Source of the DNA: an uncultured Planctomycetota bacterium | GTDB taxonomy: Bacteria > Planctomycetota > Planctomycetia > Isosphaerales > Isosphaeraceae | Assembly: GCA_963737655.1 (NCBI GenBank) | Contig: CAVTTN010000002.1 | Span: 5,824,001-5,888,000 of the forward strand | Direction: 5' to 3' | Length of the DNA stretch: 64,000 bases | Part shown: positions 49,245-64,000 of the stretch, in pieces | Numbering within the stretch: the first letter of the stretch is position 1 | Layout of the letters: each line of letters starts with the position of its first letter | Program-made: the position numbers and the translations under genes | Notes under the pieces: model-generated | What the model was told of the DNA's origin: nothing | The model's input: the letters and a program-made list of their open reading frames with translations, nothing else | Databases searched by the model: none

Positions 49245-51086
49245 ATGCCCGAATCCTCATCCTCCCCCGCCCTGCCCCGTCGCGAGTTCCTCCGCCGGGC
49301 CGCCGCCGCCTCGGTCGCCGTCCCCTTGCTGGCGTCTTCCGAGGCCCTGGGCGCGACCGCCCAGCGGGAGGCCGACGCCTTCCTCGCGAAATATGTCGAT
49401 GGCTGGCTCCCCCTCGAAGCCGCCGCCAATCAGGCGTCGTGGACCGCCTTGACCGACGTGACCGAGGCCCACACCGCCGCCCAGGTCGCGAAGAACCAGG
49501 CCCTCAACGAGTTCGTCGGCTCTCGCGAGGTCATCGACGGCGTCAAGTCCCTGCTCGCCCGCCGGGCCGAGCTCTCGGACCTGACCGTCCGCCAGCTCGA
49601 AAAGGCCCGCCTCCGCGCCGCCGAGGCCCCGGGCACCATCCCCGAAATCGTCAAGGAACGGACCGAGGCCGAGGCCCGCCAATCCGCCGTCCAGGACGGC
49701 TACACCTTCTTCATGGCCCGGGGCGCCCAGGGAGGCCCCGTCTCGGCCAACGAGATCGACGGCGTCCTCGTCGGGTCTCGCGACCTGCCGGAGAGGCTCG
49801 GGGCGTGGGCTGCGTCCAAGACGATCGGCCAGGCGCTCCGGCCGGGCCTCTTGAAGCTCCGCGACCTCCGCAACCGCGCGGCCCGCGAGCTCGGCTTCGA
49901 CGACTTCTTCGCCTTGCAGGTCGCCGACTACGGGATGACCACCGCCGAGATGATCGCCCTGTGCGACGGCTTCGTGGCGCAGGTCAAGCCCCTGTATGAA
50001 CAGCTCCACACCTGGGCCAAGCACGAGCTCGCCCGCCGCTACAAGGCCGACGCCCCCGACGGCAAGATCCCCGCCCACTGGCTCCCCAACCGCTGGGGCC
50101 AGAACTGGCCGGGCCTGGTCGAGGGCGTGGACATGGACGCCCCGTTCCAGGGCAAGACCAAGGAGTACATCACCGAGCAGGCCGAACGGTTCTACACCTC
50201 TTTGGGATTCCCCCCCCTGCCCCGATCCTTCTACGAGAAGAGCGACCTCTACCCGCCCGACCCCAAGTCCAACCGCAAGAAGAACTCGCACGCCAGCGCC
50301 TGGCACGTCGATCTGAAGCAGGACGTCCGCAGCCTGATGAGCATCGAGCCCGACTCCCGATGGTTCGGCACCGCCCACCACGAACTCGGCCATATTTACT
50401 ATTACATCAGCTATTCCACACCCCAGGTCCCGTACCTCCTCCGGGGCGGCGCCAATCGCGCCTTCCACGAAGGCATCGGCGACCTGATCGGCGTGGCGGC
50501 CGGCCAGAAGCCGTACTTGAAGCAGATGGGCCTGCTCACGCCCGAGGCCGAGAAGGCCGACACCGTCACCTACCTCCTCGACGCCGCACTCGACCGCTCG
50601 ATCACCTTCATCCCCTTCTCCGCCGGGACCATGACGAGGTTCGAGCGCGACTTCTACGCCGGGAGCATCCAGCCCGACGCCCTGAACGCCGCCTGGTGGC
50701 AGATCGTCGGGCAATACCAGGGGATCGCCCCGCCGATCGACCGGCCCGAGCACCTCTGCGACGCCGCCACCAAGACCCACATCAACGACGACCCGGCGCA
50801 ATACTACGACTACGCCATCGGGACCGTCCTGAAGTTCCAGCTCCACGACCACATCGCCCGCGAAATCCTCAAGCAAGACCCCCGCGAGTGCAATTACTAC
50901 GGGAACAAGAAGGTCGGCGACTTCCTCTCAGGAATCCTCGGCCTCGGGGCCACGAAAGACTGGAACACCGTCCTCCGAGACGCCACCGGCTCGGGCCTCT
51001 CCGCCGCGCCCATGGTCGCCTACTTCGAGCCGCTCAAGGCGTGGCTGGAGCAGAAGAACCAGGGCCGCAAAATCGGCTGGGGCTGA
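49245..51086 (+). CDS. Peptidase M2 (ACE-like peptidyl-dipeptidase) with Tat signal
   Basis: RREFLRR Tat motif; HHELGH zinc motif, GANRAFHEGIG, HASAW and LKFQLH. Confidence 0.92.
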   Translation: MPESSSSPALPRREFLRRAAAASVAVPLLASSEALGATAQREADAFLAKYVDGWLPLEAAANQASWTALTDVTEAHTAAQVAKNQALNEFVGSREVIDGVKSLLARRAELSDLTVRQLEKARLRAAEAPGTIPEIVKERTEAEARQSAVQDGYTFFMARGAQGGPVSANEIDGVLVGSRDLPERLGAWAASKTIGQALRPGLLKLRDLRNRAARELGFDDFFALQVADYGMTTAEMIALCDGFVAQVKPLYEQLHTWAKHELARRYKADAPDGKIPAHWLPNRWGQNWPGLVEGVDMDAPFQGKTKEYITEQAERFYTSLGFPPLPRSFYEKSDLYPPDPKSNRKKNSHASAWHVDLKQDVRSLMSIEPDSRWFGTAHHELGHIYYYISYSTPQVPYLLRGGANRAFHEGIGDLIGVAAGQKPYLKQMGLLTPEAEKADTVTYLLDAALDRSITFIPFSAGTMTRFERDFYAGSIQPDALNAAWWQIVGQYQGIAPPIDRPEHLCDAATKTHINDDPAQYYDYAIGTVLKFQLHDHIAREILKQDPRECNYYGNKKVGDFLSGILGLGATKDWNTVLRDATGSGLSAAPMVAYFEPLKAWLEQKNQGRKIGWG

Positions 51087-51100
51087 GCAGATCACCGGCC

Positions 51101-51165
51101 GGGTGGCATGCTTACGTCCGCGTAAGCATGTCTTCCTGCGACGCCCGCGCGGACATGCCCACCCA
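51101..51165. repeat. REP-like unit (GGGTGGCATGC family)
   Basis: GGGTGGCATGCTTACGTCCGCGTAAGCATGTC with a degenerate partner. Confidence 0.7.
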
Positions 51166-51937
51166 AACGCATGCATGTCTCCGCATGTTGTCCCGGAGGG
51201 TCCAGGCCCCAAACCAGGGGCCTCGGACCGTCCCCCGGGGGCATCCGATCACAAACCGAAGGGCGGATCACGGCAGACCTCCGAACCACGACCCGCACCA
51301 AGGCCGGAACCCCCGGCCCCAAGCGAGTCACCTTGCTCAAAACCATCGCGACCAACGCCCCCGACGATCACCCAATCCCAAAAATCGAACGGCGGCCCGA
51401 GAAACCACACGCCCTCGAAGGCCCTCGACCACGACCCGGGACTGCGCCGATTCGGACAGAAAACGAGCAAAAAGGCCCCGAAACCCCCTCGACGCAACTC
51501 CAGGAAGGGCCAGGACTTGAACGTGATACGAACAAAAAACTCAAATATGAGGATCGGACCCGCGTGCGCAGTCGCTGCGCGCTCGGAAACAGCCTGAAAA
51601 CCGCCGTTCCCGACGTTTCTCGGGAAAAAGTGTCGTCAACTTCCCCGAAAGTGTCGTCAACTTTCCCCCAACATCTGCGCTCACGCATCTCTAATTTCCT
51701 TCAAATCCACAGCGTCGAACAAATTTTCAAGATTCGCAGATTCGCACACCAGAACATCGGCAAGCTACCACTCTCAACTGCGACCCCCCTCTCCCGCGAC
51801 GACACTTCGGAGGGCAAGCCGCGGGCCGCCGTCATCGACGCAAGAACACCCCACCAAACTCCCCTTTCCCCCATCTTTCTCCGTGAATTTCGCAAATTAC
51901 CCCAAAGCTCCAAATTTCCCAAACCAACAGGAACAAG

Positions 51938-52332
51938 GAATCCTGCGAGGCCCCCTGCGCTCCGGGGGACGACCCGATCGAGACGCAACCGAGGAGGCCG
52001 CGACGCTCGTCGATTAGACCGCATCCACAGATTTATGAAAAATCAAATCTCGATTATATCAGCCTTGAACCGGCGGGTCGGCAAGGGCCGCCGATCTCCA
52101 AATTCGGGGTAACTCAGCTCGCACGTTGCCCCGGCTTTCTGATTTCCCGGCGGAGCACGCGGCGGGGATAACCCAGAGCACCCAGAACGCCAGGAAGGAA
52201 CCGGACCACCGGCCGAATCGAATCCAGGAGGAAAAAATCCAAGAAATTTCTTGCGGGGCGAGTTCCTCGCCGGCAAGATGAAAATCCGGCTCAGGATTAT
52301 ACGTCACTTTCGATGTCTACTTCATGTTAGGC
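51938..52332 (+). other. attI-like leader of cassette array 1
   Basis: About 390 bp homologous to 60449-60908. Homology ends just after ...GATGTCTACTTCAT-GTTAGGC (core 52326-52332), and no attC hairpin precedes the core. Confidence 0.7.
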
Positions 52333-52605
52333 GGAACGCCGCGAGGGTTGCCGGCGCTTGACGAGGCGGTTACGCTCGATGGCGCGTCGTGAGCTCGCTC
52401 GGCGACCGGTCGTCGAGCGCAACAGTCGCGCGGCCCGCGTCCCGGGATCGGGGGTGGCGTCCCGTCTAACTCCCGGTAGGCGGAACGGTCGTTCCGCCTA
52501 GCCATTCGGCGTTGAAGTGGATTGCTCGCGGGCCTTCCGTATCGGTCATATGCGCATGTGACGATGTATTTAATTCCTCATTAGCCGAAGTGAGGCCCGA
52601 CGACC

Positions 52606-52917
52606 ATGGCTCTAACGGCTTGCCCGGAGTGCGGGCGAGAGGTGTCCGACCGTGCCCCAACCTGCCCTCAGTGCGGGTGCCCGATCGCCAGCGCGACGCC
52701 CCGACCTCCCACCGCACCACCTCCAGCCCCGCGAACTCCCACACAACCACCTCAGGCCGCGCAGACGCATACCCGCAGCCAGGAGGTCGGCTCCTTCGAC
52801 AAGAGCTTCGGTAACGCGGCCGGGACCAGGCTCGGGTGCATGGCTGTGGGTGGGATCATACTTGCCATCTTATTCGTGTTCATAATGATTATCGCCGCCA
52901 TAGCCAACAGCCGGTAG
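52606..52917 (+). CDS. Cassette gene: zinc-ribbon protein with C-terminal TM
   Basis: MALTACPECGREVSDRAPTCPQCGCP plus hydrophobic tail. Confidence 0.8.
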   Translation: MALTACPECGREVSDRAPTCPQCGCPIASATPRPPTAPPPAPRTPTQPPQAAQTHTRSQEVGSFDKSFGNAAGTRLGCMAVGGIILAILFVFIMIIAAIANSR

Positions 52918-52974
52918 AGTCGGCCCGACGAAAAGGAGACGGGATGGAATGCCATCGTCACGAGTCGGCCGCCT

Positions 52975-53354
52975 CTTCGTGAACTCTTTGGCTGGGAACG
53001 GCCATCGACGCGCGACACTACCCCAACCCCAGGCTTTGTGGCCGGGCAGCGGCGAGGTCCGGGTAGCAAACCGACGGATTCAAGAGCGGCGGACGAGGCG
53101 CGGGCCGAGAGGGGAGTCGGTTACGCTTGCAGTCTCTTCGACGGGAACATCCCCGCGAGTCGGCTCGCGGGGCGTCGCCAATGACCGGATCACGACCTCT
53201 CGGGCCAGGCTAACCTACGGGCAGGGAGCACCAAGGTGGAGACGGCCGGGAGGCCCGCGCCACACTCAGGCTACGCCGCGCCGGGTCGGCGGGCAAGTCG
53301 TCCCCGACCCCCGTTCACGCCCCGTCGGGAGCGGACGAAGGCCGCAGGATGGTT
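52975..53354 (+). mobile_element. 380-bp attC-inserted non-coding element, copy 1
   Basis: GCCT|CTTCGTGAACTC...GCAGGATGGTT|AACCTCG; five copies of equal length. Confidence 0.9.
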
Positions 53355-53449
53355 AACCTCGCGCTGCAGCGGACCCGCACCGCCGCGACGGTTATCGTGC
53401 TATCATGGCTTACTCGGCGGTGCGGGTCCGCTGAGCTTTGGCGTTAGGC
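53355..53449 (+). other. attC site 1 (R'' box split; GCCT at 52971-52974)
   Basis: AAC-CTCGC-GCTGCAGCGGACCCGCACCGCCG..loop..CGGCGGTGCGGGTCCGCTGAGC-TTTGGC-GTTAGGC, with one unpaired base between the L boxes. Confidence 0.88.
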
Positions 53450-53564
53450 GGCGGAGAACACCCCGTCGTCGCGTCGTGCCTGAAACCTCCTATCATCACG
53501 TCGAAGCTCCCCCGATCAGGCTCGCAACACCGGTCGGGAGTGAACGGCGGGAGTCGATCGCGCC

Positions 53565-53930
53565 ATGGAGAATGCCTCGCACTACCGCGATGATCCCAGG
53601 CGATTAGAGGCCGCTGAGCTGTTGGGCACATTGTTCTCATCGGCTCCGCGTCCGGCGGCGGAAATCCTGACCATCGCGAGGAAGCTGGAGGGCCATGACG
53701 GGGTCGGGTTCTTCAAGTTGCCGGTCCCCTATTTCATCAAATCGAATGGTATCGTGCTTAAGTCCGGATTAAACTCGATGAGGGGCGCGGTGAGTTCGCT
53801 CATAGCCGATCTAGAGGCGATGGACCCAGCGGCACTCGTCGTCGTCGATATCGACGCCAGTGCCCTGGGCGGTGGCCTGGCACCTGAAGAGCCGGTGCCA
53901 CCCGACAGCCGACCGGACGCCTCTTCGTGA
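53565..53930 (+). CDS. Cassette gene: hypothetical protein
   Basis: 121-aa ORF between attC sites; its stop lies in element copy 2. Confidence 0.55.
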   Translation: MENASHYRDDPRRLEAAELLGTLFSSAPRPAAEILTIARKLEGHDGVGFFKLPVPYFIKSNGIVLKSGLNSMRGAVSSLIADLEAMDPAALVVVDIDASALGGGLAPEEPVPPDSRPDASS

Positions 53931-54302
53931 ACTCTTTGGCTGGGAACGGCCATCGACGCGCGACACTACCCCAACCCCAGGCTTTGTGGCCGGGCAGCGG
54001 CGAGGTCCGGGTAGCAAACCGACGGATTCAAGAGCGGCGGACGAGGCGCGGGCCGAGAGGGGAGTCGGTTACGCTTGCAGTCTCTTCGACGGGAACATCC
54101 CCGCGAGTCGGCTCGCGGGGCGTCGCCAATGACCGGATCACGACCTCTCGGGCCAGGCTAACCTACGGGCAGGGAGCACCAAGGTGGAGACGGCCGGGAG
54201 GCCCGCGCCACACTCAGGCTACGCCGCGCCGGGTCGGCGGGCAAGTCGTCCCCGACCCCCGTTCACGCCCCGTCGGGAGCGGACGAAGGCCGCAGGATGG
54301 TT
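53923..54302 (+). mobile_element. 380-bp attC-inserted element, copy 2
   Basis: Same sequence and GCCT|AAC junctions as copy 1. Confidence 0.9.
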
Positions 54303-54398
54303 AACCTCGCGCTGCAGCGGACCCCGCACCGCCGCGGCGCCTTCTCTGTTATCCTGCCCCTCTCGGCGGTGCGGGTCCGCTGAGCTTAGGTGTTAGGC
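54303..54398 (+). other. attC site 2
   Basis: Same stem with a different loop; GTTAGGC at 54392-54398. Confidence 0.88.
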
Positions 54399-54450
54399 GG
54401 CTCCAAAGAACCTCTGGCGTTATCGCCACCCTCGAAGTGGAGATTCAGCG

Positions 54451-55125
54451 ATGAGGAATCGAACAACGTCGCTATTTGTCAGTCTGGTCGTGATGGCCTC
54501 AGCCAGTGGCGCCAAGGGCGACCTACTTATCAACCCAGGGGCCGAGACGGGCGACCTGACCGGCTGGACCAAGGGCGGGGTCTCGAACCCGTTCGTCGAC
54601 AACGGGTCCTTCGACCCGGGCATCAATCCTCACTCCGGTCGCTTCGATTTCGTCGGCGGCACGGGCGCGTTCGGGACGCTCACCCAGAACGTCTCCTTGG
54701 CCGGCGCTCCGGGAGTTACCGACGCCCAGATCGATAGCGGGATCGTCTCTGCTCAGGTATCCTTCTGGGAGCAGGGACTCAACCAAGGCCCCACCAGCGA
54801 TAACGGCTTCGTCTCGCTCACCTTCCGTGACGCGAACAACTCGGTGTTGGGCACCGTCTCTACTCCAGTGATCGATTCTCACGACCTGACCTGGGAGAAC
54901 TTCACCGGGAGCTTCGCGGTCCTGGCTGGCACTCGTTCTATCGATTACACGATGAACTTCACGCGCCATGTCGGCAGCGATAACGATGCATTTTTCGACG
55001 ACAACAGCCTCACGGTCTCGGTTAATTCCGTGCCGGAGCCGACCAGTCTCTTTATGTTGGGGTCCGGTGCTCTGGCGGTTCTCGGCTACGCCCGGCGGCG
55101 AAGGGTGCAGACCGCCTCTTCGTGA
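54451..55125 (+). CDS. Cassette gene: PEP-CTERM surface protein
   Basis: Signal peptide, LLINPGAETGDLTGW and VPEPTSLFMLGSG..RRRR; stop supplied by element copy 3. Confidence 0.9.
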   Translation: MRNRTTSLFVSLVVMASASGAKGDLLINPGAETGDLTGWTKGGVSNPFVDNGSFDPGINPHSGRFDFVGGTGAFGTLTQNVSLAGAPGVTDAQIDSGIVSAQVSFWEQGLNQGPTSDNGFVSLTFRDANNSVLGTVSTPVIDSHDLTWENFTGSFAVLAGTRSIDYTMNFTRHVGSDNDAFFDDNSLTVSVNSVPEPTSLFMLGSGALAVLGYARRRRVQTASS

Positions 55126-55497
55126 ACTCTTTGGCTGGGAACGGCCATCGACGCGCGACACTACCCCAACCCCAGGCTTTGTGGCCGGGCAGCGGCGAGG
55201 TCCGGGTAGCAAACCGACGGATTCAAGAGCGGCGGACGAGGCGCGGGCCGAGAGGGGAGTCGGTTACGCTTGCAGTCTCTTCGACGGGAACATCCCCGCG
55301 AGTCGGCTCGCGGGGCGTCGCCAATGACCGGATCACGACCTCTCGGGCCAGGCTAACCTACGGGCAGGGAGCACCAAGGTGGAGACGGCCGGGAGGCCCG
55401 CGCCACACTCAGGCTACGCCGCGCCGGGTCGGCGGGCAAGTCGTCCCCGACCCCCGTTCACGCCCCGTCGGGAGCGGACGAAGGCCGCAGGATGGTT
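55118..55497 (+). mobile_element. 380-bp attC-inserted element, copy 3
   Basis: Same sequence and junctions as copy 1. Confidence 0.9.
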
Positions 55498-55593
55498 AAC
55501 CTCGCGCTGCAGCGGACCCCGCACCGCCGCGGCGCTCACTCTGCTATCATGGCTCACTCGGCGGTGCGGGTCCGCTGAGCTTTGTTGTTAGGC
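55498..55593 (+). other. attC site 3
   Basis: Hairpin ending in GTTAGGC at 55587-55593. Confidence 0.88.
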
Positions 55594-55615
55594 GGCGGGG
55601 TTAGGGGGGTCGTCG

Positions 55616-55981
55616 ATGCATGCGGGTCACCCCGAACCGACGGAGCGTTGGGGAGCGGTCCCCGAGTGGTACGCCGCTTTCGCTTCGGAGCGGCACTGGG
55701 AGTTTCTCACTCCCATGGTCGGCTTCACGCGATGGGTCGGCTCCTTGCCCATCGCCGCTATGCTGTATCCGCACACATCGCACGAATACCTTTGCGTGCA
55801 ACTGCGGCCCGGGCATCTTCCCGACGAGCCATTGGTCTTCGCATGCGTGCGCCCCGACGGTCAGTTCGAGTGCGGGCTCCAAGGGTGCAAGGGACAACTT
55901 CTGTCGTGTCGTACCAGCCCGATCGAGTCGGCTCACGATGCGTTCGCTTCGGCCCTCATCGGGTTGGGCCTCGTGGCCTGA
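55616..55981 (+). CDS. Cassette gene: hypothetical protein
   Basis: 121-aa ORF filling the space between attC 3 and the next R'' box. Confidence 0.55.
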   Translation: MHAGHPEPTERWGAVPEWYAAFASERHWEFLTPMVGFTRWVGSLPIAAMLYPHTSHEYLCVQLRPGHLPDEPLVFACVRPDGQFECGLQGCKGQLLSCRTSPIESAHDAFASALIGLGLVA

Positions 55982-56008
55982 TCCACCCGGCATCGGTCGA
56001 CGCCGCCT

Positions 56009-56388
56009 CTTCGTGAACTCTTTGGCTTGGAACGGCCATCGACGCGCGACACTACCCCAACCCCAGGCTTTGTGGCCGGGCAGCGGCGAGGTCCGGGTAG
56101 CAAACCGACGGATTCAAGAGCGGCGGACGAGGCGCGGGCCGAGAGGGGAGTCGGTTACGCTTGCAGTCTCTTCGACGGGAACATCCCCGCGAGTCGGCTC
56201 GCGGGGCGTCGCCAATGACCGGATCACGACCTCTCGGGCCAGGCTAACCTACGGGCAGGGAGCACCAAGGTGGAGACGGCCGGGAGGCCCGCGCCACACT
56301 CAGGCTACGCCGCGCCGGGTCGGCGGGCAAGTCGTCCCCGACCCCCGTTCACGCCCCGTCGGGAGCGGACGAAGGCCGCAGGATGGTT
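56009..56388 (+). mobile_element. 380-bp attC-inserted element, copy 4
   Basis: Same junctions; one substitution (GGCTTGGAAC vs GGCTGGGAAC). Confidence 0.9.
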
Positions 56389-56484
56389 AACCTCGCGCTG
56401 CAGCGGACCCGGCCCGCCGCGGCGCTTTCTGGTAATATCAAGGTCAATCTCGGCGGGCCGGTCCGCTGAGCTTTGTCGTTAGGC
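56389..56484 (+). other. attC site 4
   Basis: Stem variant CCCGGCCCGCCG/CGGCGGGCCGGG with compensatory changes; GTTAGGC at 56478-56484. Confidence 0.88.
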
Positions 56485-56501
56485 GGCGGAGGGCTACGGA
56501 G

Positions 56502-57398
56502 TTGAAGCGTGAAGCGCGACTCAACGAGACTATAGACGCAATCCTTGAGGATTTCATTGCGATCGGGTCGCCTCGTGCTGGTGCGCTGCTCAGCAACGAT
56601 GCTGATCCTGAATTCATCCGGGGTGTTCAGGCTGCGATTGTTTCGCTTGAAATGGGAATTTCATTATCTTATGCTGAAAAGCGATACGTCCCACCAGCAG
56701 GCCCAATCGTCCTCCCAAAACGGTACATCTTGTTTCAAGGCGCTTATCGTACCGCCGTTGATCATGTTAGTCGCATAAAGAAAAAGTGGAGACAGCGACC
56801 CGATGAGGAGCAGATTTGCAGTGTTGGCGGTATCGTGTTCTCAAATGTTGCTCTTCGGCGAGTGGAGGGCACCTTCCGCGCGGCGGGTCTATTGTTTCGA
56901 ATAGGATATATGCTCGAAGCCCGAGCAGTTGCACGAACTATTTTGGAACAAGTAGCGTGGTCTTATGCAGTCCGCGACATTATTGATTTTGATCAAGCAT
57001 CTAAATTGAGTCCTACAAAATGTATTTCGGAGTTAAAGAAATTGCTGCCTTACGTTGGGCGGCTTTATGGGGATTTAAGTGAAGAGACGCACCTAGGGTT
57101 GGAAGAGCATGGTCGCTTCCTGCGTATTGAGGGAAATACCTCGAAAGTGCTTTTTTGTCATGGCGAAGATAGTTGGGAGAGCGGGCTAGTTTTGTTGAAT
57201 TTGGCAGACATCTGGGCTGTTGTCTTTGAATGCTCCCAGCGAGCATTCGTGTTGCAGCCGGAATGCTGGTCCGCGAAAATCAACGGCTTCGAGCTCAACA
57301 AAGATCGCCCTATGGTCAAGACCATCGAAGAATACTACGCCGACGCCGATGGAATAGCTGAGATGGCGGCCGATCTCAGGGATAATGCGGACGCCTAA
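56502..57398 (+). CDS. Cassette gene: low-GC hypothetical protein (DUF5677-like motifs)
   Basis: 298 aa; ARAVARTILE and LYGDLSEETH; stop TAA lies within GCCTAA (R'' remnant). Confidence 0.75.
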   Translation: MKREARLNETIDAILEDFIAIGSPRAGALLSNDADPEFIRGVQAAIVSLEMGISLSYAEKRYVPPAGPIVLPKRYILFQGAYRTAVDHVSRIKKKWRQRPDEEQICSVGGIVFSNVALRRVEGTFRAAGLLFRIGYMLEARAVARTILEQVAWSYAVRDIIDFDQASKLSPTKCISELKKLLPYVGRLYGDLSEETHLGLEEHGRFLRIEGNTSKVLFCHGEDSWESGLVLLNLADIWAVVFECSQRAFVLQPECWSAKINGFELNKDRPMVKTIEEYYADADGIAEMAADLRDNADA

Positions 57399-57787
57399 AG
57401 GCGGAAAAGGGGACGAAGGCGGAAAAGGGGACGGAGGGAATTAGGGGCGGAAAAGGCGGAAAAGGGGACGGAGGGAATTAGGGGCGGAAAAGGGGTCAGG
57501 AGCCGAAAACGGGTTTATTTAGGCGCAGTTTCGGCTCCTGACCCCTTTTCCGCCCTCGTTTTCGGCTCCTGACCCCTTTTCCGCCTTTGACCCCTTTTCC
57601 GCCTTGACCCCTTTTCCGCCTCCCCGCAAATCCGGGGATTCTGCGCCACTTTCGATGTCTACTTCATGTGGGGCGGAAAAGGGGACGGTGGGAATAAACA
57701 AGATTAATACAACCTATTTATTCCCTCCGTCCCCTTTTCCGCCCCCCCGTCCCCTTTTCCGCCCCCCGTCCCCTTTTCCGCCCCCCG
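57399..57787. repeat. Cluster of GGCGGAAAAGGGG(AC/TC) direct and inverted repeats
   Basis: More than 10 units in both orientations, including the palindrome AAAAGGGGTCAGGAGCCGAAA..TTTCGGCTCCTGACCCCTTTT. Confidence 0.9.
57623..57669 (+). other. Truncated third attI-like fragment
   Basis: CCCGCAAATCCGGGGATTCTGCGCCACTTTCGATGTCTACTTCATGT matches 60857-60903 and stops inside the GTT core. Confidence 0.75.
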
Positions 57788-57850
57788 AAGGATGCTGTTG
57801 CGATTGAGTACGAGCAACGCTTTATCGATTCGTGCAGTTGAGCCGAGCGA

Positions 57851-59815
57851 TTACTCACCCCGGGAACCACCCGGCGCCCAGTTTCCGGCGAATTTGCCGG
57901 CCCGCAAGTCCGGCAACAACTTCAGGATGCAGTCTCCCGGGATGACCATACCTCCGTGCGGACCGGGCCTGGCGATCGTGACCCCGATCGCACGCCCGGT
58001 GAGATCTACGATGGGACCCCCGCACTCGTAGGTAAAGAACGGCACGGCGCACTCGATCACCGTGGGAAAGTCGTCCGCCCGATAGTTGGTGTCGCCGTAA
58101 CGCGTTTCCGGCGCCAGGGGGAGCAACAGATCCATCATCGTGCCGCCCCTCTCGAGGCGGACCGGCACGACGTCCCCTGCCCGTCGGTGCTTGACCGCTT
58201 CCAGGACGTCGGCTTCGGCCTGAACTGAGCGGCCGTCGATGCTACGCAGGAGATCGTGTGGCTTGATGCCGGCGGAATCGGCCAGGCCGAAGGCACCCGT
58301 AACGCGATAGACGGTCGCTCGGGGTAGGCCGAACGCGGCTCGCAGCGAGTAACCACCGATCGGCCGCGGGATTCCGTGGATTTTCGGGCGCCCGGCGGGT
58401 ATCCGCAACGGCAGGGTCTCGGTCGGACGGACCGGCGCAGCGAGATCGCGACGCGGTACGCTGACCACGCCGACGGCCAGCGGCTGCTCGGTGCCGACGG
58501 CCGTCAGGAGCGTCCCGAGCGGGGGATCGAAGTCATCGGCCCACCGCACCGGCTCCAGGCCCGACGCCGGCACCGTGAGCAAGGCCAGGTCGAATGCCGG
58601 GTCGACGCCGGCGACCCGTGCGGACACGACCTTGCCATCCGGGAGGCGGCACGTCGGCCGGTTGGGCAGTTCACTCGCCTTCGTGACCACCCATCCGTCG
58701 GCGGCGACGACCGTGCCCAGGGCGACGGCGACCCCCTCGTTCAGCACGACGACTACGCTGGGGCGAGTCGGCTCCGCGATCGACCGGTATCGAGCCAACG
58801 TCGCGGAGCCCTGGGAGTAGTCCGCCTGTTGGAGACGTGCGCTGGCAAGAAATTCGCCGTCGGTCCTGGCGACGCCCCCTTTGCCGGGCGGAGAGATCTC
58901 TCCGCTTCGCATCGTGTCCATCAGGGAGTCGATGAGCTTGCTCCCCGCGACTTGCCACAGGCCGAATCCGCCGCGACGCTGGAAGCCGGCGTCAAGATCA
59001 CGCCCGAGCGCCAGCCGTCCGTCGTTGCGATGCACGATCCCCAGCAACTTTCCGTCGAGGTCGAAGAAAGGGCCGCCCGAGTCGCCGCCGGCCACCATGC
59101 AATCAGTGGCAAAAAATTCCGCCGTCCCGCCGATCACGCGGCCGAGGCGCACGGGAGCGGATCGGTCCTTGCGGTATCCGAGCGGGTGGCCGATCTTGAG
59201 GACCCAGTCGCCCGCCTCGACCGGGGCCGTGGCGCTGAGCGGCACGTGCGGGTACGGACCGGGCTCGAGCAACCGCAGGAGAGAGAGGTCATAATCGCGA
59301 TTCGCGCCCAGCAGTTCGGCGGGGCACTCGCTGCCGTCGTGGAGGATGACCGTCGTCCTCTCGCCCGCCTTGCCGGACGGCCTGTCCGCCTGATTCGCCG
59401 CGTGGTGTCCATCCTCGGAAGGCTTCTCGTGGCTGACGTGCCACTGCGACAGGACGACCCCGTCGGCGGTGATGATCACCCCGGAGGCATGGTCCTGGTG
59501 TCGCCCCACCTTCGATGGCTTCTTGTAGGGATTCTTCACGGCAACGACGGACGGGAGAACCGCCCGGGCCGACCTGCGGACCCGTTCCTCCAGTTGCGTG
59601 AGGTCGCCCGCCTCACGCCGGACGGTCGGACCGACGCCGCGGTCGTATCCGACCACATCGTCCGCCTGGTCCGGCAAGTAAGTCATCCAGAGACGGATGG
59701 CCAGCCAGCCAGAGAAGACGGCGATGATGAACAATGAGATATAAGAAACTCGCGTTCGCCAGGTGCGACGGGAGCCGACGGCGGTGGTTGCGGGCCAGGC
59801 GGGCACCATTCGCAT
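57851..59815 (-). CDS. Trypsin-like serine protease with two protease-like domains and PDZ
   Basis: ASGVII..WHV, DLSLL and GGDSGGP; the second domain ends ECGGP (no Ser); N-terminal TM. Confidence 0.85.
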   Translation of the reverse strand: MRMVPAWPATTAVGSRRTWRTRVSYISLFIIAVFSGWLAIRLWMTYLPDQADDVVGYDRGVGPTVRREAGDLTQLEERVRRSARAVLPSVVAVKNPYKKPSKVGRHQDHASGVIITADGVVLSQWHVSHEKPSEDGHHAANQADRPSGKAGERTTVILHDGSECPAELLGANRDYDLSLLRLLEPGPYPHVPLSATAPVEAGDWVLKIGHPLGYRKDRSAPVRLGRVIGGTAEFFATDCMVAGGDSGGPFFDLDGKLLGIVHRNDGRLALGRDLDAGFQRRGGFGLWQVAGSKLIDSLMDTMRSGEISPPGKGGVARTDGEFLASARLQQADYSQGSATLARYRSIAEPTRPSVVVVLNEGVAVALGTVVAADGWVVTKASELPNRPTCRLPDGKVVSARVAGVDPAFDLALLTVPASGLEPVRWADDFDPPLGTLLTAVGTEQPLAVGVVSVPRRDLAAPVRPTETLPLRIPAGRPKIHGIPRPIGGYSLRAAFGLPRATVYRVTGAFGLADSAGIKPHDLLRSIDGRSVQAEADVLEAVKHRRAGDVVPVRLERGGTMMDLLLPLAPETRYGDTNYRADDFPTVIECAVPFFTYECGGPIVDLTGRAIGVTIARPGPHGGMVIPGDCILKLLPDLRAGKFAGNWAPGGSRGE

Positions 59816-59945
59816 CGGGGCATCTCCTCCGGGGAGGCCGTCGCCATCCGATTAAAGTCACTGGCCATAGGCTTGACGTGGGACGACGCTCGATTCTACC
59901 GGAATTCTACAATTGTCGGAATGCTCTCCTCCCAACCGAGTGAGG

Positions 59946-60252
59946 TCAGGTGTCGTAGGCCCCGCTCATGTTCAGCAGCCGGAGGATGCGACGTTGCAGG
60001 CGGCTCAACTTCGTAGTCAAGACCACCGCCGGGCGCCGGCCCGCTGACAACTCATGCCGCTGCACCTCCTCGAACAGGTCGATCACTTTCCGCGCCGTCG
60101 GCCGCCGACACGCTCGACCCTCCGGGTACAACGGCAGGCTCTCGATCCCCGCGCTTCCCATCGCTCGTCTCAGCTCCCGCTCCAGGAGCGACTCCACCAG
60201 CAAAGCCCAGAAAAAGACGCAGAGCAACGCCTGAATCCGGCTCACCTCCTTC
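59946..60252 (-). mobile_element. IS1634-like transposase C-terminal fragment
   Basis: LKEVSRIQALLCVFFWALLVESLLERELR..LPLYPEGR..RPTARKVIDLF..LSRLQRRILRLL; the 5' part is replaced by the GGCGGAAAGGGGG repeats. Confidence 0.75.
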
Positions 60253-60444
60253 AGGCGGAAAGGGGGACGAGGCGGAAAGGGGGACGCGAGGCGGAAAGGG
60301 GGACGGAGGGAATTATGAGCTTTCCGAGCCACTGAAGGCCGCCTCCCCGTGGGGACGGAAAAGGGGTCAGGGGACGGAAAAGGGGTCAGGAGCCGAAAAT
60401 GGATTTATTTAGGCCCATTTTCGGCTCCTGACCCCTTTTCCGCC
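60253..60444. repeat. GGCGGAAA(A/G)GGGG repeat cluster and palindrome
   Basis: Same family as 57399-57787; 60293-60350 is nearly duplicated at 62051-62113. Confidence 0.85.
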
Positions 60445-60448
60445 CAAA

Positions 60449-60908
60449 GAATCCTGCGAGGCCCCCTGCGCTCCGGGGGACGACCCGATCGAGACGCAAC
60501 CGAGGAGGCCGCGACGATCGTCCATTAGAACGAATCTACAGGTACAGAAAGAATCAAATATCGATTACGTCGGCCCCGAACCGGTGGGTCGGCAAGGTCC
60601 CCCGATCTCCGAATTCGGGGTAACCCAGCTCGCACGTTGCCCCAGTTTTCTGATTTCCCGGCGGAGCACGCGGCGAGGATAACCCAGAGCACCCAGAACG
60701 CCAGGAAGGAACCGGACCACCGGCCGGATCGAATCCAGGAGGAAAAAATCCAAGAAATCCCTTGCGAGGCGAGTTCCCCGCCGGCAAAATCAAAATCCGC
60801 CTCAGGATTATACGTGCTAAACGACGTGATAAGTCACGTCGTTTAGCACGTATAATCCCGCAAATTCGGGGATTCTGCGTCACTTTCGATGTCTGCTTCA
60901 TGTTAGGC
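60449..60908 (+). other. attI-like leader of cassette array 2
   Basis: Homologous to 51938-52332 and ends GATGTCTGCTTCAT-GTTAGGC (60902-60908); contains a 25-bp perfect inverted repeat at 60805-60858. Confidence 0.7.
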
Positions 60909-61033
60909 GGGCTTCGACTCGAACGACCGGACTGCCCGGCGCAGCCGGCACCGGTCGGGAAGTGTCGCAACCCAGGGGACCTCGGTAGAATCGATCGAGG
61001 TCGGTCGGCGATCTTCGAATCCCGGGGAGGGGC

Positions 61034-62044
61034 GTGATGGGAGTGTCGCACCCGATGAAACGGATCGTCCAGACATCCACGATGGTCGCATTGCTGGCCG
61101 TGGCCGGTAGGCCGGCTCGGGCCGACATGGCGACCTACGCATTCGCGCTCAACAACGCGGGGGTGACCGTCGGTGCCTATTACGACGAATCGAGCACCGT
61201 CCCCTACTATGGTCACGGCTTCCTCTATTCCGGCGGCCAGTACACGACTCTCGACGACCCCCTGGCGGCCTACGGCACGGAGGCGACCTCGATCAACAAC
61301 TCCGGTCAGGTTGTGGGAAATTATTTTGATGGCTCTGGCAAGTCACAGGACTTCCTCTATTCGGGGGGGATGTTCACCACGCTCAACCTCCCCTTCGGGA
61401 CGATCCGGAGCACCCAGGCGCTGGGGATCAACGACTCCTCGGCGATCGTGGGCTACTACGAAGACGGCTCGCGGGTCTATCACGGCTTCCTCTCCTCCGG
61501 GGGGGCCTATTCCACGATCGACGTCCCCGGCGCGAGCTTCACGGTCACGGCCGGGATCAACAACGCCGGCCAGATCGTGGGCAGTTTCGACGACGCCACC
61601 GGGGGCCACGGCTTCCTTTACTCCGGCGGGATCTTCACCGCGCTGGACGACCCCTTAGGAGTGAACGGCACGGTCGCTTCGGGGATCAATAATCTGGGCC
61701 AGATCGTCGGCTACTACACGGACAGCTCGAACAAGGCCCACGGCTTCATCGAGTCGGGCGGCCAGTACACCACGATTGACTATCCCGGCGGAATCAACGG
61801 CTCGTTCGCGAATGGGATCAACGACTCCGGATCGGTCGCCGGCTATTTCTACGACGACACGAACGGATTTCTGTATGCCAACGGGTCGTTTACCGTGCTC
61901 TCGGTGCCGGAGCCGTCGTCGCTCTTGCATTTCATGACCGCGTCGCTGGTCGGTCTCGGCGGGCTGATCCATCGTGGCCTGGCGGGACGCGGAAAAGGGG
62001 ACGGCGGAAATTGTGGGCCTGCCGAGTCGCCGAAGATCGCCTAA
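61034..62044 (+). CDS. Cassette gene: PEP-CTERM protein with HAF-like extracellular repeats
   Basis: Repeats GINNxGQIVGYY..HGFLYSGG and VPEPSSL; stop TAA lies within an intact GCCTAAC. Confidence 0.88.
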   Translation: MMGVSHPMKRIVQTSTMVALLAVAGRPARADMATYAFALNNAGVTVGAYYDESSTVPYYGHGFLYSGGQYTTLDDPLAAYGTEATSINNSGQVVGNYFDGSGKSQDFLYSGGMFTTLNLPFGTIRSTQALGINDSSAIVGYYEDGSRVYHGFLSSGGAYSTIDVPGASFTVTAGINNAGQIVGSFDDATGGHGFLYSGGIFTALDDPLGVNGTVASGINNLGQIVGYYTDSSNKAHGFIESGGQYTTIDYPGGINGSFANGINDSGSVAGYFYDDTNGFLYANGSFTVLSVPEPSSLLHFMTASLVGLGGLIHRGLAGRGKGDGGNCGPAESPKIA

Positions 62045-62049
62045 CCTCG
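62039..62049 (+). other. Uninterrupted attC start (empty target site), truncated by a repeat
   Basis: GCCTAACCTCG equals the left flank plus right flank of the five element insertions; followed by AGGCGGAAAAGGGGAC. Confidence 0.8.
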
Positions 62050-62201
62050 AGGCGGAAAAGGGGACGGAGGGAATTCTGAGCTTTCCGAGCCACTGAAGGC
62101 CGCCCCCACGGGGAGGCGACCTCTGCATGGCGCTTCCCTCGGCCGGGCGCTTCGTCTAGAGTGATCCCGACTCGGGGGCGGTCCGCAGACGAGAGGAACC
62201 C

Positions 62202-62588
62202 ATGCCCTTATTCGATGACGCCCCTCCCACGGACCATGCCGGCGGAGGCGGGAGCCGCTTCGATCCCATCAAAGTGCGGACTCGGCCGGCCTCCCGCCAG
62301 GAGCGGTATGTGAGCGGGGTCCTCCTGGCGTTCGGCTCGCTCGCCCTGTCGATGTGCGTTCAACAGACGTGGGCCCACGACTTCCGGGCCCCGAACAGCG
62401 GCTGGCGGCTATTCGGGATGTACCTGGTCCCGGCCGTCCTCTTTGCCCTCGCCCTCCATCAGAGGAGGGCCCGCCGCGTGATCGGGTCTGTTTCGGAGGA
62501 GGAGGGGGATGGCGACGGGAGGCGAGGAAAGGGGTCAGGAGCGAGGCGAGGAAAGGGGTCAGGAGCCGATTTTGGCGGGCGGGTCTGA
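62202..62588 (+). CDS. Hypothetical membrane protein; C-terminus runs into repeats
   Basis: RBS GAGGA and two TM segments; the tail is encoded by GAAAGGGGTCAGGAG repeats (62520-62615). Confidence 0.55.
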   Translation: MPLFDDAPPTDHAGGGGSRFDPIKVRTRPASRQERYVSGVLLAFGSLALSMCVQQTWAHDFRAPNSGWRLFGMYLVPAVLFALALHQRRARRVIGSVSEEEGDGDGRRGKGSGARRGKGSGADFGGRV

Positions 62589-62666
62589 GAATCGGCTCCT
62601 GACCCCTTTCCGCCTCCCGGGCGGCGGAAGACAGGTTACGTCCATTCCGATCTTGGAGGTTAGAAC

Positions 62667-62897
62667 ATGAGCGCGGAACCAACTCGGTGTACCAAGTGCA
62701 ACGGCGAGATGGAGCAGGGGTTCCTCTTCGAGTCCGAGGGTCACAGTCTCGACACCTGGGTCGAGGGGACGCCGGAGAAGTCTTGGTGGGGGGGCGCGAA
62801 GGTTCCGAAGGAAAAGCGCATGCCGGTGGGCACCTTCCGGTGTTCGGTGTGCGGATTCTTGGAATCCTATGCGCGGCCAGAGTTCGGCACGAATTAA
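62667..62897 (+). CDS. Small zinc-ribbon protein (DUF6487/PF20097-like)
   Basis: CTKCNGEMEQGF..W..G.P..TFRCSVCGFLESYA; RBS GGAGGT. Confidence 0.75.
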   Translation: MSAEPTRCTKCNGEMEQGFLFESEGHSLDTWVEGTPEKSWWGGAKVPKEKRMPVGTFRCSVCGFLESYARPEFGTN

Positions 62898-62979
62898 CGC
62901 CGCATCGCCCGTAGAGAGACAAATGGGGTCAGTTCAATAGGTCGGCCCAGTTACCCATTCAGGCCGGGCCGAGACGCCT

Positions 62980-63359
62980 CTTCGTGAACTCTTTGGCTGG
63001 GAACGGCCATCGACGCGCGACACTACCCCAACCCCAGGCTTTGTGGCCGGGCAGCGGCGAGGTCCGGGTAGCAAACCGACGGATTCAAGAGCGGCGGACG
63101 AGGCGCGGGCCGAGAGGGGAGTCGGTTACGCTTGCAGTCTCTTCGACGGGAACATCCCCGCGAGTCGGCTCGCGGGGCGTCGCCAATGACCGGATCACGA
63201 CCTCTCGGGCCAGGCTAACCTACGGGCAGGGAGCACCAAGGTGGAGACGGCCGGGAGGCCCGCGCCACACTCAGGCTACGCCGCGCCGGGTCGGCGGGCA
63301 AGTCGTCCCCGACCCCCGTTCACGCCCCGTCGGGAGCGGACGAAGGCCGCAGGATGGTT
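62980..63359 (+). mobile_element. 380-bp attC-inserted element, copy 5
   Basis: Same sequence and GCCT|AAC junctions, in the second array. Confidence 0.9.
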
Positions 63360-63456
63360 AACCTCGCGCTGCAGCGGACCCCGGCCACGGGCCGCGTTTT
63401 TTCTGATCTCGAGCTCACTGTTCCGTGGCCGGGTCCGCTGAACTTGGTCGTTAGGC
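63360..63456 (+). other. attC site 5
   Basis: Stem CCCGGCCACGG/CCGTGGCCGGG; GTTAGGC at 63450-63456. Confidence 0.88.
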
Positions 63457-63636
63457 GGCGTCGAGCGACGGCCCCCGATGAACTCGAAGTCGTCTTCGGC
63501 TAGAGGCCGGGTGCATGAGTCAACGGGCGGCCACTTCCTCAGGAAGAATAAACTGATACCTTATTCCCCCTATTCCCCTGCAAGCATGACCTCCTGCGAA
63601 TGAGCCGAGCCGAGACGGAAAAGCTCTGGAGGAACA

Positions 63637-64000
63637 ATGCGTTCTTTCCTCTTCGCCCTGATCCCGGGCCTCTTCCTGGCCGACTCCTCGCGGGCCGATG
63701 ATCCGCCCGGGCCGCCGCCGCTGAAGATCGCCGGTACGCAAATCCAGACCCTCGATGGGAAGGCCGTGCGCCTGCGAGGTGTCAATCTCCCCGGCCTGAT
63801 GTGGGGCGAGAGGGCACACCTTGGGTCGTCGATCCGCGTCGCTACCGAAGAGTGGGGCGCCAACATCATCCGGGTGTGCCTGTCGCCGGATCTCTGGTAT
63901 GGCAAGGCGAAGGGGGACAAGGACGGAGGCGCAGGCTACCGTAAGACCGTGCATGCCGTCGTCGACCAGGTAGCCGCCCGGCACTGCTACGTGATCCTCG
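63637..64000 (+). CDS. Glycoside hydrolase family 5-like protein, partial (runs off window end)
   Basis: Own translation: signal peptide, LKIAGTQI..DGKAVRLRGVN, WGANIIRV and VDQVAARHCYVIL; RBS GGAGGA. Confidence 0.8.
   Translation, partial: MRSFLFALIPGLFLADSSRADDPPGPPPLKIAGTQIQTLDGKAVRLRGVNLPGLMWGERAHLGSSIRVATEEWGANIIRVCLSPDLWYGKAKGDKDGGAGYRKTVHAVVDQVAARHCYVIL

What the first reader, a model, noticed from the sequence alone, without database searches (positions are those of the whole stretch)
52975..53354. The element folds as a + strand structured RNA with matches to its own target (bridge/seek-RNA candidate)
Seen in copy 1: nested helices GGCGCGGGCC/GGCCCGCGCC (53097-53106/53252-53261), CCGAGAGG/CCTCTCGG (53105-53112/53196-53203), TCGGTTA/TGACCGG (needs G-U pairs, favouring the + strand), CCCCGCGAG/CTCGCGGGG (53151-53172) and GGGTCGG/CCGACCC. 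Target-like segments: CTAACCT (53210-53216) equals the target across the insertion point. GCAGCG(G)CGAGGT (53046-53058) is complementary to attC ACCTCGCGCTGC with one bulge. GAACATCC (53145-53152) is one base short of the complement of the predicted circle junction GGATGGTTC. Known: IS110/IS1111 elements insert without duplication and use an RNA from their non-coding end that pairs with target and donor. Inference: a guide-RNA-only mini-IS110. The motifs CTCTTTG..GGCCATC and GGGCAGGGAGCACCAA recall IS110 non-coding ends, from memory and unverified. The matches are short and could be chance.
Basis: partly seen in the sequence, partly recalled or inferred. Interest (0 to 1): 0.85.

Follow-up and report, generated by a model that had tools for sequence, protein, structure and literature searches.

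The report
Gene-less bridge-RNA transposon in integron sites
This 380-base repeat is a miniature jumping element with no enzyme gene that still encodes its own complete guide ("bridge") RNA, aimed at integron cassette sites and at its own end, and it probably spreads by borrowing the enzyme of a related full-length IS110 element in the same genome.

Summary
The element is real: 28 copies lie in the genome (5 in the window), all in the R'' box of integron attC sites (CT|AACCT), without duplication. The same genome holds 6 intact 1.8-kb IS110-group elements with the same insertion point and a homologous non-coding left end. The mini carries a two-loop bridge RNA, but on the MINUS strand (53261-53097). 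Across homologues the target guide (53216-53210) matches each element's own target (22 of 32; null 1.4) and the donor guide (53140-53134) matches its own right end (22 of 23). The mini's donor guide (CGAAG) and handshake bases fit its own ends and differ from the helper's (CGGGG). It is a sister lineage of the helper, not a deletion of it. Gene-less forms arose at least five times in this clade. The left donor guide position shows no covariation. No transcript or mobility data exist. Closest precedent: MITEPpu9/ssr9. This scan noted transposase-less IS110 minis in other genomes before (unchecked). Verdict: new variant of a known kind.

The parts
52975..53354 (-). Mini-IS110, copy 1 (380 bp, no recombinase gene; functional sense = minus)
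   Evidence: 28 full copies in genome; no transposase remnant by tblastn
53923..54302 (-). Mini copy 2 (identical)
55118..55497 (-). Mini copy 3 (identical)
56009..56388 (-). Mini copy 4 (one substitution, outside the RNA)
62980..63359 (-). Mini copy 5 (identical)
53268..53296 (-). Putative internal promoter (-35 TTGCCC 53296-53291, 17-nt spacer, -10 TAGCCT 53273-53268)
   Evidence: Inference. TAnnnT at this position in 31 of 41 homologues vs 57 of 561 background windows; kept in all minis aligned; too weak for the consensus scanner (0 found)
53097..53261 (-). Bridge RNA (about 165 nt, closed by outer helix 53261-53252/53106-53097); ends inferred
   Evidence: HMM built only from transposase-upstream DNA of other genomes hits here on minus, E 4e-19; structure
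53203..53247 (-). Target-binding loop: stem, left target guide about 53243-53235 (poor match here), inner hairpin 53233-53218
53210..53216 (-). Right target guide AGGUUAG, pairs with top-strand CTAACCT of attC R''
   Evidence: 22 of 32 homologues match their own junction; 36 of 36 occupied sites carry CT|AACCT
53208..53209 (-). Target-loop handshake bases CC, complementary to the GG next to the core at the element's own left end
   Evidence: second base covaries in 20 of 25 vs 6.9 expected
53106..53202 (-). Donor-binding loop: stem, left-donor-guide position 53189-53182 (no match to donor), inner hairpin 53172-53151
53134..53140 (-). Right donor guide CGAAGAG, pairs with the element's own end (core + CTTCG, 52975-52979)
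   Evidence: guide = own end in 22 of 23 homologues, also in L039 mini and L120
52975..52994 (-). Right end (right donor; short sub-terminal repeat); read on plus it supplies an in-frame TGA two codons after the interrupted TAA
   Evidence: ORFs 53565-53930 and 54451-55125 end there
53335..53354 (-). Left end (left donor, ending in TT on plus)
52971..52974 (+). Left part of the split attC R'' box (GCCT, with core CT)
53355..53449 (+). Rest of the attC site (AACCT ... GTTAGGC)
   Evidence: attC-like bottom-strand hairpin; integron integrase in the genome
52321..52334 (+). attI-like site heading the cassette array
   Evidence: same motif about 190 bp from the intI start and at the head of 4 of the arrays; inference

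Best explanation
A non-autonomous IS110-group element that keeps both ends, an internal promoter and a complete bridge RNA, but no recombinase. SHOWN (sequence): copy number, target, homology to the left end of transposase-bearing elements, strand, two-loop structure, and the match of guides to its own target and own ends. INFERRED: the RNA is transcribed from the minus strand and loads on the 450-aa DEDD/Ser recombinase made by the 6 intact resident IS110 copies. The target loop pairs with the attC top strand CTAACCT and the donor loop with the mini's own right end. Top strands are cut 3' of the core and exchanged, helped by the CC handshake, and the product is resolved by replication or repair. 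This explains why every left junction keeps the target's CT and every right junction the donor's TT. The mini's guide would form two A-C mismatches with the helper's end, whereas the helper's guide can read the mini's end through two G-T wobbles. The mini therefore probably diverts the shared enzyme to itself (28 vs 6 intact copies). Extra attC specificity probably comes from the hairpin, or from selection against insertions elsewhere. Odds: identity and strand about 0.93; own RNA actually guiding with the resident enzyme about 0.65.
For: 28 mini and 8 full or part-deleted copies, all at CT|AACCTNGCGC; one filled/empty cassette pair shows clean insertion. Helper: NF033542 251 bits, IS621 hit E 5e-11, D24/E67/D105/D108/S337 intact in 6 of 6. 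Donor guide vs own end 90 of 92 nt, null 56.9, max 74. Target guide 22 of 32, null 1.4, max 7; handshake 20 of 25, null 6.9. Strand: consensus energy -51.1 vs -40.5, G-U 41 vs A-C 11 in shared pairs, minus more stable in 28 of 39; near-invariant G-U pairs on minus (38, 37, 39 of 39). The RNA core is more conserved than the rest between minis (G003 12/151 vs 31/102 differences, p 5e-6). No attC lacking CTAACCT is occupied (0 of 35 such sites, some dubious or duplicates), against 36 of 54 with it. Helper-clade DNA occurs in all 3 places where this mini lineage was found (G000; a G003 fragment; in tandem in L039). Top-strand, copy-out transposition and trans action are reported for other IS110s.
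Against: No transcript, circle, binding or transposition data (runs held contigs only). The left donor guide position does not covary with the donor in any of 4 registers, and the left target guide matches poorly in this element, so the canonical four-guide scheme is only half met. Homologues are kin and only 8 distinct donor-guide types occur among 23 rows, so null p-values overstate. The helper RNA could move the mini through wobbles. The mini's nearest full relative is L120-like, not the resident element; the genome is 87.7% complete. No helper was found with this query in G014 (60% complete) or G084, which hold other minis.
Confidence: 0.7

Rival explanations
1. Passive MITE: the mini is moved by helper recombinase plus helper bridge RNA (two G-T wobbles at the donor guide). 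Its own RNA is a leftover of the left end or acts only as a decoy or regulator, as proposed for Ssr9.
For: The helper guide can pair with the mini end by wobbles. A simple internal deletion leaves the left-end RNA by default. About 100-bp ends-only minis of the second IS110 in this genome exist without a long RNA region. Ssr9 was not required for ISPpu9 transposition.
Against: The core RNA is more conserved than its flanks among minis, helix changes are wobble or compensatory, and guide and end change together in the L039 mini (TGAAG/TGAAG). Handshake bases fit the mini's own end and the promoter motif is kept.
Confidence: 0.17
2. The RNA is functional but its true partner is another recombinase: an L120-like full element now lost or unassembled, or the second (412-aa) IS110 of this genome.
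For: Minis group with L120 (100/98), sister to the resident helper clade; assembly 87.7% complete.
Against: The HMM scan of the genome finds only minis and the resident element. 15 of 24 near-identical copies checked are identical, so movement is recent. The second IS110 has different ends, a different target and no homologous RNA.
Confidence: 0.09
3. One reading: a plus-strand RNA using CTAACCT, GCAGCG(G)CGAGGT and GAACATCC as guides.
For: One helix has two G-U pairs on plus and is kept among minis; cassette-array transcription would read through on plus (inference).
Against: Antisense to the transposase in all full elements; conserved G-U pairs would be A-C; two proposed guides are at chance level.
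Confidence: 0.02
4. Remnant of another attC-targeting or guide-RNA element (group IIC-attC intron, IS1111-attC, TnpB omega-RNA MITE).
For: Those also insert near the attC 5' end, antisense to the array; earlier scan notes found omega-RNA minis behind similar first readings.
Against: No Rfam hit over the element in the list returned; direct homology and shared ends with an IS110 whose long non-coding end is upstream of the gene.
Confidence: 0.02

Closest known systems
MITEPpu9 (ssr9 module) of ISPpu9, Pseudomonas putida KT2440 (PMC12288879, PMC8450116)
   Same: Gene-less IS110 derivative with both ends and a sense small RNA; AG core in transposase orientation; native internal promoter; found alone and in tandem with the full element (as in L039).
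   Different: In the sections I read, Ssr9 is treated as a hitchhiker or regulator and no guides are mapped on it. Its ends nearly equal the helper's. Here the mini has its own donor guide and handshake, different from the helper's, outnumbers it 28:6, and targets attC, not REP.
IS621 bridge recombinase and bridge RNA (PMC11208160, PMC11208158; PDB 8WT6)
   Same: DEDD + Ser recombinase; RNA in the long left end; target loop then donor loop; right guides pair with top strands; handshake bases; CT core on the guided strand.
   Different: The element lies in the opposite orientation to the CT strand (the donor guide reads the right end). No left-donor pairing detected. Donor core TT vs target CT. 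Promoter inside the end, not at the circle junction (inferred). Recombinase 450 aa vs 328-residue PDB chain.
IS1111-attC group (ISPa21, ISPst6, ISKpn4; PMC11187229, PMC3001079)
   Same: Insert near the 5' end of attC, antisense to the cassette array.
   Different: Those have the long non-coding region downstream of tnp and long sub-terminal repeats. Here it is upstream (271-289 vs about 160 bp). Exact insertion points were not compared (primary papers not read).
Group IIC-attC introns (PMC3001079)
   Same: Insert between cassette gene and attC on the bottom strand.
   Different: No intron features or RT gene; DNA recombination rather than retrohoming.

Membership tests
IS110 group (bridge recombinase elements) | DEDD RuvC-like domain plus Tnp domain with catalytic Ser | tested here: met
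   In the helper only: PF01548 + PF02371, residues intact in 6 of 6. The mini has no gene.
IS110 group (bridge recombinase elements) | Long non-coding left end upstream of the gene, same strand, with a two-loop RNA | tested here: met
IS110 group (bridge recombinase elements) | Right target guide pairs with target top strand | tested here: met
   22 of 32
IS110 group (bridge recombinase elements) | Right donor guide pairs with donor top strand | tested here: met
   22 of 23
IS110 group (bridge recombinase elements) | Left target guide pairs with target bottom strand | tested here: inconclusive
   Weak signal over homologues (50 of 138 vs 34.8, p 0.0016, best of 2 registers), poor in this mini
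IS110 group (bridge recombinase elements) | Left donor guide pairs with donor bottom strand | tested here: not met
   No covariation in 4 registers, 25 elements; so this is not a canonical IS621-type four-guide RNA
IS110 group (bridge recombinase elements) | No target duplication; shared 2-bp core | tested here: inconclusive
   No duplication (filled/empty pair); core shares only 1 of 2 bases (CT vs TT) in 36 of 36
IS110 group (bridge recombinase elements) | Circular intermediate; RNA expressed and bound by recombinase | not testable with these tools
   only contigs available
MITE-like non-autonomous IS110 (MITEPpu9 type) | No gene, ends shared with a co-resident autonomous element, multiple dispersed copies | tested here: met
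MITE-like non-autonomous IS110 (MITEPpu9 type) | Mobilisation in trans | not testable with these tools
   inferred from copy number and identity
IS1111-attC group | Long non-coding region downstream of tnp, long sub-terminal inverted repeats | tested here: not met
   long end is upstream; repeat at most 12 bp in helper, degenerate in mini
Group IIC-attC intron | Intron RNA domains and RT ORF | tested here: not met
   no Rfam match over the element; no such ORF

The most novel reading that the evidence does not exclude
A long-lived lineage of 'guide-RNA parasites': gene-less elements whose bridge RNA loads onto a sister lineage's recombinase and redirects it to their own, different ends. The crosstalk is one-way (helper RNA tolerates the parasite's end, parasite RNA excludes the helper's), in an IS110 clade that uses only the two top-strand guides plus handshake. 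By filling most matching attC sites they also act as portable homology that reshuffles integron cassettes between arrays.
Probability: 0.45. Interest if true: 0.78.

Novelty: new variant of a known kind. Interest (0 to 1): 0.6.

Why it matters
It would be a natural case of donor reprogramming in trans: one recombinase, two bridge RNAs, two donors, one target. That makes competition between guide RNAs for an enzyme directly testable. It points to an IS110 clade in which the left donor guide appears unused and the cores are mismatched, which bears on the open question of top-strand versus double-strand exchange and on bridge-editing design. It also adds an IS110-group route to attC targeting (the ones I found in print are IS1111-attC elements and group IIC introns) that occupies 36 of 54 matching attC sites in this genome and weakens their R box.

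Tried and rejected
Whole-element folding: not significant on either strand. Rfam scan of 50000-64000: no match over the element copies; listed hits are hairpin noise. Sigma-70 and terminator scan: none. Plasmid collection: no DNA match to the mini; 384 records with helper-like proteins, all under 60% identity and without IS names. Metagenome pattern scan: 3 loci, 1 real (L120, full element), 2 apparently chance. Sequencing runs: 24 listed, best share 0.14. 4 were laid, all contigs, giving fragments of relatives only, with no strand, ends or circle junction; the one RNA run gave one 175-nt contig. These are no evidence either way. Left donor guide: no signal. An extended target guide explaining the invariant GCGC after AACCT: none by inspection. 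L013 (G021) has a target loop but no donor loop or gene; treated as decayed. Not done: structure prediction, R-scape, viral collection, comparison of insertion points with ISKpn4/ISPst6, direct TnpB search.

Full report
OBSERVATION. Window 52975-53354 is a 380-bp element with five copies in the window (52975, 53923, 55118, 56009, 62980) and 28 full-length copies in genome G000 (87-100% identical); 15 of the 24 closest copies checked are identical. Every copy sits in the R'' box of an attC-like site, GCCT|AACCT. The genome has an integron integrase beside one array (TIGR02249, 475 bits), and an attI-like motif heads that array and others, including this window's. One cassette occurs filled and empty, showing insertion without duplication. 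The whole element folds no better than shuffles; the 169-nt core does, better on minus (z -3.54) than on plus (z -1.76). The host is probably a planctomycete (an unchecked scan note on this genome, and the nearest transposase relatives).

THE HELPER. A search for PF02371 gave 8 matches in the genome. Six are copies of a 1.8-kb element inserted at the same point of attC sites; two more copies are internally deleted. It encodes a 450-aa IS110 recombinase with D24, E67, D105, D108 and S337 intact in 6 of 6 copies (residue roles by alignment to IS621). The gene runs antisense to the array. Its long non-coding end (271-289 bp) lies upstream of the gene and is 75% identical to mini positions 125-285. 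Transposase sense therefore equals the window's minus strand.

STRAND AND STRUCTURE. 79 loci encoding relatives were fetched. An HMM built only from their upstream regions hits the window copies on minus (E 4e-19). Of 51 non-redundant regions, 39 were aligned (12 short, gapped or weak ones left out). The consensus fold is -51.1 on minus vs -40.5 on plus; in 15 pairs common to both folds there are 41 G-U vs 11 A-C cells; minus is more stable in 28 of 39 sequences. The 35-pair structure has 86.8% paired cells and 22 pairs with two-sided changes, 0 of 500 shuffles as high. The structure was derived from this alignment and the rows are kin, so this is support, not a p-value. It shows a target loop then a donor loop, each with UGG-hairpin-CCCG inside, closed by an outer helix. 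A TAnnnT box lies just upstream in 31 of 41 parsable homologues vs 57 of 561 background windows, giving an inferred internal promoter at 53296-53268, which the consensus scanner did not call. Against: the helix TCGGTTA/TGACCGG has two G-U pairs on plus and is kept among minis. I first recognised the loop geometry from recall of IS621, then checked it against paper passages.

GUIDES. Of 51 regions, 37 could be parsed and 23 had a right end found by a motif independent of the guide. The donor guide equals the element's own end at 90 of 92 positions (22 of 23 perfect; null mean 56.9, maximum 74). The one miss, L090, is a parsing slip: one search shows a match. Only 8 distinct types occur. The target guide matches the left junction exactly in 22 of 32 elements with enough flank (null 1.4, maximum 7). 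In 25 with a called junction, the second handshake base matches the element's own left end in 20 (null 6.9). The left target guide gives a weak signal (50 of 138 vs 34.8; better of two registers) and fits poorly in this element. The left donor position shows nothing in four registers. In the mini: target guide AGGUUAG (53216-53210), handshake CC, donor guide CGAAGAG (53140-53134) matching its own end; the helper has CGGGGAG matching its own. All 36 insertions have CT on the left and TT-AACCT on the right. Of attC-like sites, 36 of 54 with CTAACCT are occupied and 0 of 35 without it (4 dubious, many duplicates of one cassette). About 35 CTAACCT sites outside attC are empty (counted by eye), so a further determinant or selection operates; a target stem-loop requirement is reported for ISPpu10 (abstract).

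LINEAGE. The DNA search matched 8 of 121 genomes of the order and the RNA model 23 of 121. A close mini (82%) is in G003, also in attC, and a 71% mini stands in tandem behind a full element in L039, where guide and end have changed together. Among the hits I inspected (30 loci plus 15 fetched stretches, not all hits), further gene-less forms occur in G014 (2 copies), G019, G064, G084 and G088. In a 50-row tree (12 of the 51 regions left out, 11 added) the 8 minis are not one clade (p-AU 5e-7, at least 5 changes). The window mini groups with the G003 and L039 minis and the full element L120 (100/98; long branch), sister to the helper clade (96/92). It is thus not a deletion of the resident helper. 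Between minis the RNA core is more conserved than the stretch behind it (10/151 vs 17/102; 12/151 vs 31/102; 32/151 vs 38/102), and helix changes are mostly G-U on minus or compensatory; the L039 mini's target-loop hairpin is damaged.

MECHANISM (inferred). The minus-strand RNA loads the helper recombinase. The target loop binds the attC top strand and the donor loop the mini's right end. Cutting 3' of the core and exchange of top strands only yields exactly the observed CT/TT junctions; top-strand and single-strand copy-out reactions are reported for CazIS110-1 and IS621, and trans action for ISPpu10. By pairing rules the mini guide mismatches the helper end twice (A-C) while the helper guide reads the mini end with two G-T wobbles, which suggests one-way parasitism but also leaves the passive-MITE rival open. 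Effects on the integron: the terminal R stem of attC is lost or shifted in 5 of 5 predicted folds (2.7-4.2 kcal/mol weaker), though AAC is kept. Cassette genes ending in the R'' TAA gain two codons and a new stop. One cassette bounded exactly by two minis occurs in two arrays with different mini variants, which suggests recombination between copies.

COMPARISON AND NOVELTY. Closest is MITEPpu9/ssr9 (PMC12288879: abstract, passages, sections 14 and 18; PMC8450116: passages). Bridge RNA: PMC11208160 and PMC11208158 (passages), PMC13626964 (abstract), 10.1101/2025.05.14.653916 and 10.64898/2026.10.21.760802 (passages), 10.1101/2025.10.25.684509 (first fifth), 10.64898/2026.03.19.712850 (abstract, section 6), 10.64898/2026.08.31.748434 (abstract, discussion). 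attC targeting: PMC11187229 and PMC3001079 (passages); Tetu and Holmes 2008 and Post and Hall 2009 were seen only as citations. Searches pairing IS110 or bridge RNA with non-autonomous, MITE, orphan, miniature or attC and planctomycete integrons found no description of a gene-less element with its own mapped guides, or of an IS110-group element at attC. The library lacks most subscription papers, ISfinder was not available and no supplements were read; the element tables of the bridge-RNA papers may already hold this clade. This scan earlier noted transposase-less IS110 minis in other genomes (unchecked); no note matched this sequence. Verdict: new variant of a known kind; interest 0.6.

Noticed in passing
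G000 C2 4847050-4848542 (L001); fragments at 287101-287599; minis at 4298432-4298522 and 1121397-1121487: A second IS110 (412 aa, other clade) inserts at GTT|AG on the plus strand, i.e. at attI- or R'-type crossover sites, and has about 100-bp ends-only minis without a homologous RNA.
   Followed up: partly
L039 1821-2211: Diverged mini in tandem directly behind a full IS110; altered target loop; contig labelled Actinomycetota although its relatives are from the window's family.
   Followed up: partly
L165, L194 (G014), L168 (G084), L182 (G088), L188 (G064), L190 (G019): Independent gene-less elements of the same clade with intact guides; L182 lies in an attC-like site.
   Followed up: partly
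L116, L117 (Chloroflexota): Related IS110 targets GTTGTT|AG|GCGGC, also attC-like, so attC targeting may have arisen more than once in the clade.
   Followed up: no
G000 C2 1678866-1680137 vs 1976602-1977873: A cassette bounded exactly by two minis is duplicated in two arrays 298 kb apart with different mini variants: recombination between copies or composite movement.
   Followed up: partly
window 57398-57786, 60259-60445, 62048-62118, 62530-62620: Purine-rich palindromic REP-like repeats interrupt the array and bound deletions, including in two helper copies and in attC sites.
   Followed up: no
window 51934-52334 and 60445-60910: Duplicated intI-upstream/attI-like region without an integrase gene; six such heads in the genome, one beside intI.
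   Followed up: partly
window 54451-55125, 61034-62044, 52606-52917: Cassette genes include PEP-CTERM-type secreted proteins and a zinc-ribbon membrane protein.
   Followed up: no
G000 C2 near 4298508: Remnant of another left end (ending in GGTT before AACCT) in an attC next to a mini.
   Followed up: no
helper residues 335-339; L039-L050, L120, L154, L161: The catalytic Ser is followed by Asn in this subclade, where IS621 and more distant relatives mostly have Gly; this subclade also mostly has the mismatched donor core.
   Followed up: no
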